Positions 31,842-31,939 of a stretch of 52,769 nt of DNA are shown one piece after another; position 1 is the stretch's first letter, and every line of letters begins with the position of its first letter. The notes beneath the pieces were generated by a model that saw only the letters and a program-made list of their open reading frames with translations, did not search any database and had not been told where the DNA came from. The stretch spans positions 1 to 52,769 of the forward strand of contig PANR01000047.1 of assembly GCA_002707695.1 (NCBI GenBank), given 5' to 3'. A program made the translations under genes and the position numbers. The DNA is from Legionellaceae bacterium. Its GTDB lineage: Bacteria; Pseudomonadota; Gammaproteobacteria; UBA12402.

Positions 31842-31861
31842 CTTAATAATTCCTTAATGTT
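31842..31861 (+). promoter_or_regulatory. Tandem CTTAAT box (PmrA-type) upstream of the 1212-aa protein / ankyrin operon
   Basis: CTTAATAAT-TC-CTTAATGTT. The 18-mer ACTTAATAATTCCTTAAT is shared with 29342-29359, and ACACTC occurs 9 nt downstream in both. Confidence 0.6.
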
Positions 31862-31939
31862 TCTTAAGCACACTCAGCTACTAATAACCATAATACCTAG
31901 CTTTTATTTCATTTCTAATTATTGTGCGTGGGGATTGCG

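What the first reader, a model, noticed from the sequence alone, without database searches (positions are those of the whole stretch)
31842..31875. Second tandem CTTAAT (PmrA-type) box, upstream of the 1212-aa protein / ankyrin operon
CTTAATAAT-TC-CTTAATGTT is 19/20 identical to the box at 29343-29362. It has the same ACACTC 9 nt downstream and A/T-rich -10-like hexamers after that. Two near-identical 20-mers 2.5 kb apart, both in intergenic regions and both on the coding strand upstream of effector-like genes, are very unlikely to be coincidental.
Basis: partly seen in the sequence, partly recalled or inferred. Interest (0 to 1): 0.75.

Follow-up and report, generated by a model that had tools for sequence, protein, structure and literature searches.

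The report
PmrA-type promoter before ankyrin operon
A short repeated DNA motif in front of a large unknown gene and an ankyrin gene closely matches the binding site and promoter layout used by the PmrA regulator of Legionella and Coxiella, so it probably marks a virulence-type regulon in an uncultured marine bacterium, a new example of a known mechanism.

Summary
CTTAATAATTCCTTAATGTT (31842-31861, +) is 19/20 identical to 29343-29362. In both copies ACACTC follows after an 8-nt spacer that has diverged. The flanks are no more alike than background (22-29%), so this is a conserved operator plus -10, not a duplicated segment.

With the published L. pneumophila PmrA matrix (cTTAATatT-N2-cTTAATatT-N7-TAtaaT) the two sites score 25.0 and 22.4 bits. 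The next unrelated site scores 13.0. The best of 300 simulated windows scored 21.8. The shared (T/C)ACACT lies exactly where that matrix puts the -10. No sigma-70 -35/-10 pair is present, as expected for an activator-dependent promoter.

Box 2 lies 79 nt before the ATG of a 1212-aa gene. That gene is followed 9 nt later by an ankyrin gene.

The window comes from an uncultured marine gammaproteobacterium (Tara contigs). It carries several eukaryote-like genes. No pmrA, pmrB or dot/icm gene lies in the 52.8 kb.

A metagenome scan shows the same motif and geometry in bacteria of 21-69% GC, including in front of EptA-like and response-regulator genes. The box therefore identifies the regulator family, not a type IV effector regulon.

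Verdict: a new member of a known kind. Regulator identity, co-expression and effector status remain untested.

The parts
31831..31836 (+). Third, upstream half-site ATTAAT, 11 bp in phase with the two core repeats
   Evidence: site 31831 scores 18.4 bits on the box columns. Box 1 has the equivalent GTTAAG at 29332. The same three-repeat layout occurs in metagenome loci L022, L115, L128 and L134.
31842..31861 (+). Box 2: tandem direct repeat CTTAATAAT-TC-CTTAATGTT, the putative operator for a PmrA-family response-regulator dimer
   Evidence: 21.9 of 25.5 possible bits on the box columns of the published PmrA matrix.
31863..31868 (+). CTTAAG in the spacer, offset 10 bp rather than 11 from the proximal repeat. 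It may be a weak extra half-site; its role is uncertain.
   Evidence: Sequence. Absent from box 1 (spacer CATCATA), so it is not part of the conserved layout.
31869..31874 (+). Putative -10 hexamer CACACT (the A at position 2 and T at position 6 are kept), 7 nt after the 20-mer. Predicted start of transcription near 31881 (inferred).
   Evidence: these are columns 28-33 of the published matrix; no sigma-70 -35/-10 pair on the + strand here.
31930..31934 (+). Shine-Dalgarno-like GGGGA, 5 nt before the ATG
   Evidence: Sequence. Public gene calls use the ATG at 31940.
31940..35578 (+). 1212-aa protein. It has a lineage-specific N-terminal half with a Sel1-like stretch, a conserved ~570-aa domain of unknown fold (aa ~540-1110), and a disordered Ser/Glu/Lys/Arg-rich tail with motifs that resemble nuclear localisation signals.
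   Evidence: no Pfam or NCBIfam family; 364 homologues.
35587..36306 (+). 239-aa ankyrin-repeat protein, 9 nt after the 1212-aa gene. The two genes probably form one operon.
   Evidence: (Ank_2, 1.6e-9) and for the coordinates. No terminator-like site lies between the genes on the + strand.
29332..29375 (+). Sister promoter: third half-site GTTAAG (29332-29337), box 1 (29343-29362) and -10 TACACT (29370-29375)
   Evidence: (25.0 bits).
29422..31011 (+). 529-aa GDSL lipase driven by box 1. It has no N-terminal signal peptide by eye and an EEHEE block near the C-terminus.

Best explanation
Positions 31831-31874 form an activator-dependent (class II-like) promoter. A dimer of a phosphorylated PmrA-family (OmpR/PhoB-type) response regulator binds the two 11-bp direct repeats CTTAATAATTC/CTTAATGTTTC. 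If CACACT is the -10, these repeats would span about -39 to -20 and take the place of a -35 element. The bound regulator recruits sigma-70 RNA polymerase to the weak -10 CACACT at 31869-31874. Transcription would start near 31881 and run through the 1212-aa gene and the ankyrin gene.

The near-identical promoter at 29332-29375 puts the GDSL lipase under the same regulator, so the two units would be switched on together by one signal.

The organism is an uncultured marine gammaproteobacterium with eukaryote-like genes. The most likely setting is therefore a PmrA-type virulence/host-interaction regulon like those of Legionella and Coxiella, with these proteins as candidate secreted effectors.

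What is shown: the motif, its statistics, its geometry, its strand and position, and the gene content. What is inferred: the regulator's identity, binding, the transcription start, co-expression and secretion.
For: 1. Match to the published L. pneumophila PmrA matrix (PMC2701608, Table S5): 22.4 bits for box 2 and 25.0 bits for box 1. The next unrelated site in the window scores 13.0. In 300 Markov-1 simulated windows the best score was 21.8 and the largest second-best was 19.3.
2. The shared (T/C)ACACT occupies the matrix's -10 columns exactly, after a 7-nt gap.
3. Similarity is confined to the repeats and the -10. The spacer and flanks are at or below background. That pattern fits selection on function, not duplication.
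4. No sigma-70 -35/-10 promoter is found at either box, whereas vapBC just upstream has a strong one.
5. The core equals the enterobacterial PmrA box, XTTAAY-N5-XTTAAY, which replaces the -35 in a solved PmrA-RNA polymerase complex (PMC10570014). From that paper's statement about the PhoB site, I infer the solved box spans about -37 to -21, which is within 2 bp of the position inferred here.
6. In metagenomes 102 of 120 exact matches to motif plus geometry are non-coding. Many lie 10-100 nt before an ORF. The downstream genes include known PmrA-family targets (EptA-like sulfatases, response regulators) and two large ankyrin proteins.
7. Host-associated flavour of the window: an ankyrin protein, a GDSL lipase whose nearest named relatives are Legionella proteins (33% and 28%), a eukaryote-like Ser/Thr kinase, and a 1212-aa protein whose homologues carry Sel1 repeats.
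8. The UvrD homologue at 68% identity lies on a contig that also carries DotM and DotL-like genes.
9. Marine Legionellales-type lineages with Dot/Icm-like systems and ankyrin, LRR and Sel1 proteins are documented (PMC9418006; PMC8896642).
Against: - No pmrA, pmrB or dot/icm gene was found in the window. Most ORFs of 100 aa or more were scanned.
- The organism's taxon could not be fixed. UbiB relatives reach only 54% identity. The DotLM-bearing contig is only marginally closer in UvrD (68%) than generic Gammaproteobacteria (62-67%) and shares little else with the window.
- No orthologous promoter from a relative could be examined. The 89%-identity relative has no DNA on hand. Homologues of the 1212-aa protein (L142, L144) and of the lipase (L018-L021) show no box.
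- The -10 is weak (CACACT).
- The motif and geometry are widespread outside Legionellales, so the effector-regulon part rests on gene content only.
- The C-terminal secretion-signal features are only weakly suggestive.
Confidence: 0.6

Rival explanations
1. The promoter mechanism is the same (a PmrA/BasR/QseB-family response regulator binds the repeats), but the organism has no type IVB secretion system. The regulated genes would then be ordinary envelope, secreted or stress genes, as in the enterobacterial, Pseudomonas or Acinetobacter PmrA/BasR regulons, and not translocated effectors.
For: Exact matches to the motif plus geometry occur in contigs of 21-69% GC. They lie in front of EptA-like sulfatase/DUF3413 genes, response-regulator genes, HlyD efflux operons and YceI genes. 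No dot/icm gene lies in the window. The taxon is unresolved.
Against: The downstream genes are not LPS-modification genes. They are an ankyrin protein, a large protein from a Sel1-associated family with a tail that resembles a nuclear localisation signal, and a signal-peptide-less GDSL lipase closest to Legionella proteins. The window also encodes a eukaryote-like kinase. The 7-nt gap to the -10 and the flanking 'aT T' positions fit the Legionella matrix.
Confidence: 0.25
2. The two 44-nt copies are direct repeats left by insertion or duplication of the 2.5-kb GDSL lipase-vapBC segment (att-like or duplicated junctions). They would have no regulatory role.
For: The copies flank exactly the lipase-vapBC block, with a start-to-start spacing of 2499 nt and a 17-nt exact core. 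Toxin-antitoxin modules often travel with mobile DNA.
Against: No integrase or transposase lies in or next to the block. Identity is split into two conserved blocks separated by a diverged 7-8-nt spacer, which is not what a duplicated junction gives. Both copies fit a 33-column promoter matrix, including the -10 position. Each lies just before a gene on the coding strand.
Confidence: 0.04
3. The match is a chance resemblance in A/T-rich intergenic DNA.
For: The intergenic DNA here is 70% A+T. TTAAT-like words are common in such DNA.
Against: Expected 0.04 matches against 2 observed; 0 of 100 shuffles reached 2. Neither score was reached as the best hit, and the second score was never reached as a second-best hit, in 300 simulated windows. 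Orientation, spacing and the -10 are the same in both copies.
Confidence: 0.01

Closest known systems
PmrA regulatory element of Legionella pneumophila and Coxiella burnetii (cTTAATatT-N2-cTTAATatT, 7 nt before the -10). It drives dot/icm genes and about 40 effector genes in L. pneumophila, and a consensus site is found in at least 68 promoter regions of C. burnetii.
   Same: The tandem 9-mers, the 2-nt gap and the 7-nt distance to a TAnnnT-type -10 are the same. So are the coding-strand position within 200 nt of the start codon, the absence of a -35, and the downstream genes with eukaryote-like features (ankyrin). Basis: the matrix from PMC2701608 scored; regulon descriptions in PMC4117601 and PMC6989116.
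   Different: The host is an uncultured marine gammaproteobacterium that is not close to either genus. PmrA and Dot/Icm have not been seen in it. Position 8 is A rather than T. The -10 is (T/C)ACACT rather than TAtaaT. A third in-phase half-site lies upstream. The downstream proteins have no homology to validated effectors.
Enterobacterial PmrA/BasR box (two XTTAAY hexamers separated by 5 nt, overlapping the -35 of pbgP/arnB, ugd and pmrCAB)
   Same: The hexamer core and 5-nt spacing are identical. The box replaces the -35. The position relative to the -10 is within about 2 bp of the promoter used for the cryo-EM PmrA-RNA polymerase complex (PMC10570014).
   Different: The regulated genes here are not lipopolysaccharide-modification genes. 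The flanking 'aT T' positions and the regulon flavour fit the Legionella type better.
PhoB pho box and other OmpR/PhoB-family class II promoters
   Same: They share the architecture: two 11-bp direct repeats that replace the -35, with a dimer contacting sigma region 4.
   Different: The half-site sequence differs. The pho box half-site is CTGTCAT from my own knowledge, not TTAAT.

Membership tests
Legionella/Coxiella-type PmrA-dependent promoter | Tandem direct repeat cTTAATatT-N2-cTTAATatT | tested here: met
   21.9 bits (box 2) and 21.6 bits (box 1) of 25.5 possible on the 20 box columns of the published matrix. The next unrelated site scores 14.3. The best of 300 simulations scored 21.2.
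Legionella/Coxiella-type PmrA-dependent promoter | A -10 hexamer (TAtaaT) starting exactly 7 nt after the 20-mer, with no -35 element | tested here: met
   CACACT (31869-31874) and TACACT (29370-29375) occupy columns 28-33. The A at position 2 and T at position 6 are kept; positions 3 and 5 deviate; no sigma-70 -35/-10 pair at either box.
Legionella/Coxiella-type PmrA-dependent promoter | Site on the coding strand within -200 to +50 of a start codon | tested here: met
   Box 2 ends 79 nt before the ATG at 31940. Box 1 ends 60 nt before the ATG at 29422. The search range is as defined in PMC2701608.
Legionella/Coxiella-type PmrA-dependent promoter | [quoted passage not shown] | not testable with these tools
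   Only 52.8 kb is available. No response regulator or histidine kinase was found among the ORFs scanned. All public contigs stop at the window ends.
Legionella/Coxiella-type PmrA-dependent promoter | The genome carries a Dot/Icm type IVB secretion system whose genes and effectors form the regulon | not testable with these tools
   There is no dot/icm gene in the window. The only indirect hint is a contig whose UvrD is 68% identical and which carries DotM_C and a DotL-like gene. That contig is not a close relative.
Legionella/Coxiella-type PmrA-dependent promoter | PmrA binds the site, and expression depends on PmrA | not testable with these tools
   This needs a gel-shift or footprinting experiment and reporter fusions.
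Enterobacterial PmrA/BasR box | Two XTTAAY hexamers separated by 5 nt and overlapping the -35 | tested here: met
   CTTAAT-AATTC-CTTAAT. With ACACT as the -10, the box spans about -39 to -23. From PMC10570014 I infer about -37 to -21 for the solved promoter.
Enterobacterial PmrA/BasR box | The regulon consists of lipopolysaccharide-modification genes (eptA, arn, ugd) and pmrCAB itself | tested here: not met
   The downstream genes are a GDSL lipase and the 1212-aa/ankyrin operon. EptA-like and response-regulator targets were seen only in other organisms' contigs.
Dot/Icm translocated effector (for the 1212-aa and ankyrin proteins) | Eukaryote-like domain, or homology to a validated effector | tested here: inconclusive
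   The ankyrin repeats are met. The 1212-aa protein has no Pfam, NCBIfam or PDB match. Its homologues carry Sel1 repeats. There is no homology to validated effectors.
Dot/Icm translocated effector (for the 1212-aa and ankyrin proteins) | C-terminal translocation signal (small and polar residues, E-block) | tested here: inconclusive
   the fraction of tiny or polar residues in the last 14 is 0.93 for both proteins, against 0.50-0.79 in seven housekeeping controls. Neither has a clear E-block; the lipase has EEHEE. This crude measure is not a validated predictor.
Dot/Icm translocated effector (for the 1212-aa and ankyrin proteins) | Dot/Icm-dependent translocation into host cells | not testable with these tools
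   This needs CyaA or beta-lactamase fusion assays.

The most novel reading that the evidence does not exclude
The window belongs to a deep, uncultured marine lineage of Legionellales-like, protist-associated bacteria in which the PmrA regulon is conserved. The box would then mark new effector families. One would be the 1212-aa protein, whose ~570-aa conserved domain is confidently predicted yet matches no solved structure, and whose tail looks like a eukaryotic nuclear localisation signal, which would make it a possible nucleus-targeted effector of a new enzymatic fold.
Probability: 0.3. Interest if true: 0.55.

Novelty: new member of a known kind. Interest (0 to 1): 0.35.

Why it matters
If the box is a working PmrA operator, a 33-nt sequence signature could be used to list candidate host-interaction genes in uncultured marine relatives of Legionella and Coxiella directly from metagenomes. 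Most of their effectors have no recognisable homology, so such a signature would help.

It would also extend the PmrA-effector regulatory link beyond the two genera where it has been tested experimentally.

It would give priority to a widespread, uncharacterised protein family (364 cluster representatives) for structural and functional study.

By itself the finding is an expected extension of a known mechanism, not a surprise.

Tried and rejected
1. Orphan status of the 1212-aa protein. The word-indexed search found nothing. The exhaustive HMMER search found 364 homologues of its C-terminal half. 'Orphan' is rejected.
2. My guess that the conserved domain is an R-S-ExE ADP-ribosyltransferase, based on the FVSTGD and ERETSF motifs and the invariant S and E-x-E. 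Two confident AlphaFold models (pLDDT 89 and 93.7) gave no PDB match at all (best E about 1, TM below 0.16). A profile search of PDB sequences hit only the Sel1 repeats of the homologues. The guess is not supported.
3. Phylogenetic footprinting. The 89%-identity relative (P0010) and its homologue of the 1212-aa protein (P0131) have no DNA on hand. L144 has only 114 nt upstream and no box. L142 ('marine bacterium B5-7' MAG) has no box in 19 kb. Lipase homologues L018-L021 have none. The DotLM contig L016 has none above 15 bits. This test was uninformative rather than negative, because none of these is an ortholog in a close relative.
4. Taxon assignment. The genome-contig scan with UbiB gave at most 54% identity to unnamed MAGs. 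UvrD gave one 89% relative without DNA, then a plateau at 62-68%. Names for the window's own proteins are withheld.
5. Extending the contig through its end genes. All public copies are 100% identical and stop at the same ends.
6. Rfam. No RNA family lies anywhere in the window, so there is no known riboswitch or small RNA in the leader.
No further sites of the same genome were recovered.
8. Several papers that give the consensus in their text (Zusman 2007, Beare 2014, Speiser 2017, Chen and Groisman 2013) are not held. I used the matrix in the Burstein 2009 supplement instead.

Full report
**1. The observation**

The window reads CTTAATAATTCCTTAATGTT at 31842-31861 (+) and CTTAATAATTCCTTAATTTT at 29343-29362 (+). 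The two are 19/20 identical, with a 17-nt exact core. ACACTC follows at 31870-31875 and 29371-29376, after 8 nt in both copies.

A search with the 20-mer at up to three mismatches finds only these two sites (expected 0.04; no shuffle gave two). All three TTAAT-N6-TTAAT matches in the window lie at these two places. The repeat finder reports them as one 44-nt direct-repeat family, 80% identical and 2499 nt apart.

I anchored the two regions on the box and compared them without gaps:
- 60 nt upstream: 13/60 identical
- an 11-nt unit just upstream: 8/11
- the 20-mer: 19/20
- the 7-nt spacer: 2/7
- the next hexamer: 5/6
- the following 80 nt: 18/80

Background identity for this A/T-rich DNA is 0.29. 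The similarity therefore sits in discrete blocks separated by diverged sequence. That is the signature of conserved functional elements, not of a recently copied stretch of DNA.

Both sites are intergenic and on the strand of the downstream gene. The gene order is ubiB, box 1, GDSL lipase, phd/vapC toxin-antitoxin pair, box 2, 1212-aa gene, then the ankyrin gene 9 nt later.

**2. What the motif is**

The supplement of Burstein et al. 2009 (PMC2701608, Table S5) gives the position matrix for L. pneumophila PmrA-regulated promoters. It has 33 columns that read cTTAATatT-N2-cTTAATatT-N7-TAtaaT.

I scored both strands of the window with this matrix. Box 1 scores 25.0 bits and box 2 scores 22.4 bits, of 34.3 possible. 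The next unrelated site scores 13.0. In 300 simulated windows with the same dinucleotide statistics, the best site averaged 13.4 bits and never exceeded 21.8. The second-best site never exceeded 19.3.

The hexamers TACACT (29370-29375) and CACACT (31869-31874) fall exactly on the matrix's -10 columns. They keep the A at position 2 and the T at position 6, which are among the most strongly conserved positions in those columns of the matrix. The A/T-rich hexamers further downstream (for example CATAAT at 31890) are too far away to work with the box.

A generic sigma-70 scan finds no -35/-10 pair on the + strand at either box. It does find a strong promoter for the vapBC pair at 31041-31068. This fits a promoter that depends on an activator in place of a -35.

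The hexamer core is also that of the enterobacterial PmrA box: two XTTAAY hexamers separated by 5 nt and overlapping the -35. A cryo-EM structure of the PmrA dimer with RNA polymerase exists for that box (PMC10570014). With ACACT as the -10, the box here spans about -39 to -23. That is within about 2 bp of the position I infer for the solved promoter from that paper's comparison with the PhoB site.

Both boxes also carry a third half-site one 11-bp turn upstream (GTTAAG at 29332, ATTAAT at 31831). The same three-repeat layout recurs in unrelated metagenome sites.

**3. How specific the motif is**

I scanned the JGI metagenome collection for CTTAAT-NNT-NN-CTTAAT-NNT-N8-ANACT.
- 102 of the 120 sites are non-coding by a simple long-ORF test. 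Many lie 10-100 nt before an ORF on the same strand.
- The contigs range from 21% to 69% G+C.
- Among 48 non-redundant downstream proteins, Pfam finds HlyD-type efflux adaptors (5), YceI (3), sulfatase/DUF3413 proteins of the EptA type (2), OmpR-type response regulators (2) and ankyrin proteins (2; L072 and L082).

The motif plus geometry is thus a real and widespread promoter class of the PmrA/BasR/QseB family. It is not restricted to Legionella relatives. The box identifies the regulator family with good confidence. It does not by itself show that the regulated genes are type IV effectors.

**4. The organism**

Exact copies of the window's proteins occur only on marine (Tara Oceans) metagenome contigs. 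All copies are 100% identical to the window and end where it ends.

The window is chromosomal (rsmG, parAB, the atp operon, uvrD, glmU, ubiE/ubiB) and about 43% G+C.

After that comes a plateau of 62-68% across Gammaproteobacteria. The 68% hit lies on a contig with DotM and a DotL-like coupling protein. That contig shares little else with the window, so this is only a weak pointer.

The gene content points to a host-associated organism:
- an ankyrin protein
- a eukaryote-type Ser/Thr kinase
- a GDSL lipase whose closest named relatives are Legionella proteins at 28-33% identity, with no obvious signal peptide
- a 1212-aa protein whose homologues carry Sel1 repeats

The 89% relative has three leucine-rich-repeat proteins at a nearby position.

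Marine lineages that fall in NCBI's Legionellales, with Dot/Icm-like systems and ankyrin, LRR and Sel1 proteins, are documented. One of them has a 42% G+C genome (PMC9418006; PMC8896642).

None of this proves that this genome has PmrA or a T4BSS. Neither gene set is in the window.

**5. The downstream genes**

The word-indexed search found no homologue of the 1212-aa protein. An exhaustive HMMER search found 364 cluster representatives, 49 of them below 1e-30. All matched residues ~520-1150.

The homologues are 900-1500 aa long and have no Pfam domain. The few with names are annotated 'hypothetical' or 'TPR repeat protein'; one is from a 'marine bacterium B5-7' MAG.

The alignment has invariant S, Y, K, G, E-x-E, P, F and Y residues. 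AlphaFold models of the domain (pLDDT 89) and of its core (pLDDT 93.7) are confident. Neither matches anything in the PDB. My guess of an ADP-ribosyltransferase is therefore unsupported.

The last ~100 residues are low-complexity and contain KRRR and RRREKRP...KRLR, which resemble eukaryotic nuclear localisation signals. This is my reading of the sequence, not a test.

The fraction of small or polar residues in the last 14 positions is 0.93 for both the 1212-aa and the ankyrin protein, against 0.50-0.79 in seven housekeeping controls. That is weak support at best for a Dot/Icm-type signal.

**6. Attempts at comparative support**

No orthologous promoter from a close relative could be read. More distant homologues of the 1212-aa protein (L142, L144) and of the lipase (L018-L021) have no box. 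The 22 kb around the DotLM genes in L016 has none either. These results neither support nor refute the claim. PmrA regulons are known to differ in gene content between species (my own knowledge).

**7. Mechanism and rivals**

The best-supported reading is an activator-dependent promoter. A PmrA-family dimer on the 11-bp repeats replaces the -35 and recruits RNA polymerase to the weak -10. The transcript starts near 31881 and covers the 1212-aa and ankyrin genes. The lipase promoter responds to the same regulator.

My confidence values:
- about 0.85 that the site is a PmrA-family operator/promoter
- 0.6 for the full statement, which includes a Legionella/Coxiella-like host-interaction regulon
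- 0.25 for the main rival: the same mechanism in a bacterium without a type IVB system
- about 0.04 for an att-like or duplication origin of the repeats; the block-wise conservation, the fit to the matrix including the -10, and the lack of any recombinase argue against it
- about 0.01 for chance

**8. Novelty and score**

This is a new member of a known kind. It is a PmrA-type promoter pair in an uncultured marine gammaproteobacterium, in front of genes of unknown function. A specialist would find it plausible and useful for finding effectors, but not surprising.

The more unusual item is a by-product: a widespread, confidently folded domain family with no structural relative. Interest score: 0.35.

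Noticed in passing
window 33557-35269 (aa ~540-1110 of the 1212-aa protein): This is a conserved ~570-aa domain found in 364 cluster representatives (49 below 1e-30). It has no Pfam or NCBIfam family. The AlphaFold models are confident (pLDDT 89 and 93.7), yet Foldseek finds no PDB match (best E about 1). Invariant residues are S, Y, K, G, E-x-E, P, F and Y. It may be an uncharacterised enzyme fold. Homologues carry Sel1 repeats N-terminal to it.
   Followed up: partly
window 35270-35578 (last ~100 aa of the 1212-aa protein): The tail is disordered and rich in Ser, Glu, Lys and Arg. It contains KRRR and RRREKRP...KRLR motifs, which look like eukaryotic nuclear localisation signals.
   Followed up: no
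window 31940-35578: The word-indexed homology search returned zero hits for this protein. The exhaustive HMMER search found hundreds. Calling it an orphan from the first search would have been wrong.
   Followed up: yes
window 211-1479 (-): A 422-aa eukaryote-type Ser/Thr (Tyr-like) protein kinase (Pkinase 5.6e-36). It is effector-like, but no PmrA-type box lies upstream of it.
   Followed up: partly
window 29422-31011: The GDSL lipase has no obvious N-terminal signal peptide. It ends in an Ala/Gly-rich tail with an EEHEE block about 15 residues from the C-terminus, which is reminiscent of the Legionella E-block. Its best named relatives are Legionella proteins at 28-33% identity.
   Followed up: partly
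window 15938-17116 (-), 21324-22610 (-), 47527-48714 (+); 1940-2332 and 31104-31783: There are three paralogous AAA_14/DUF4143 ATPase genes and two PIN-toxin/antitoxin modules in 52 kb. The relatives' contigs (P0010 locus, L016) also have DUF4143 genes next to uvrD.
   Followed up: no
L027, L035, L040, L074, L124, L133 (metagenome loci); window 44332-47424: In several unrelated metagenome contigs a PmrA-type box sits in front of a HlyD-MacB-like efflux operon. That operon is homologous to the window's own OEP-HlyD-ABC-FtsX operon, which has no box.
   Followed up: partly
L142 (GCA_021604705.1, 'marine bacterium B5-7' MAG), 4183-4446 and 12538-13377: The contig that carries a 34%-identical homologue of the 1212-aa protein also encodes a mitochondrial-carrier-family protein and an RRM_1 protein. 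Both are eukaryote-like. No PmrA-type box is present in its 19 kb.
   Followed up: partly
JGI sample 3300072015 (loci without DNA): A relative with 89% UvrD identity keeps the parB-atp-uvrD-EVE-DUF4143 synteny, then has glmS and three LRR_5 proteins. The same sample holds a 41%-identical homologue of the 1212-aa protein at a different locus. The accessory, eukaryote-like genes appear to turn over quickly between close relatives.
   Followed up: partly
window ends (1 and 52769); L009-L015: All public contigs of this organism, from several Tara assemblies, are 100% identical to the window. None extends past either end. This suggests repeats or coverage breaks at both ends.
   Followed up: partly
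L134 (1127 nt), L102, L089, L027: Some metagenome contigs carry two to four high-scoring PmrA-type sites within a few kb, clustered like the pair in this window. L109 and L130 share the exact 17-mer CTTAATAATTCCTTAAT.
   Followed up: no
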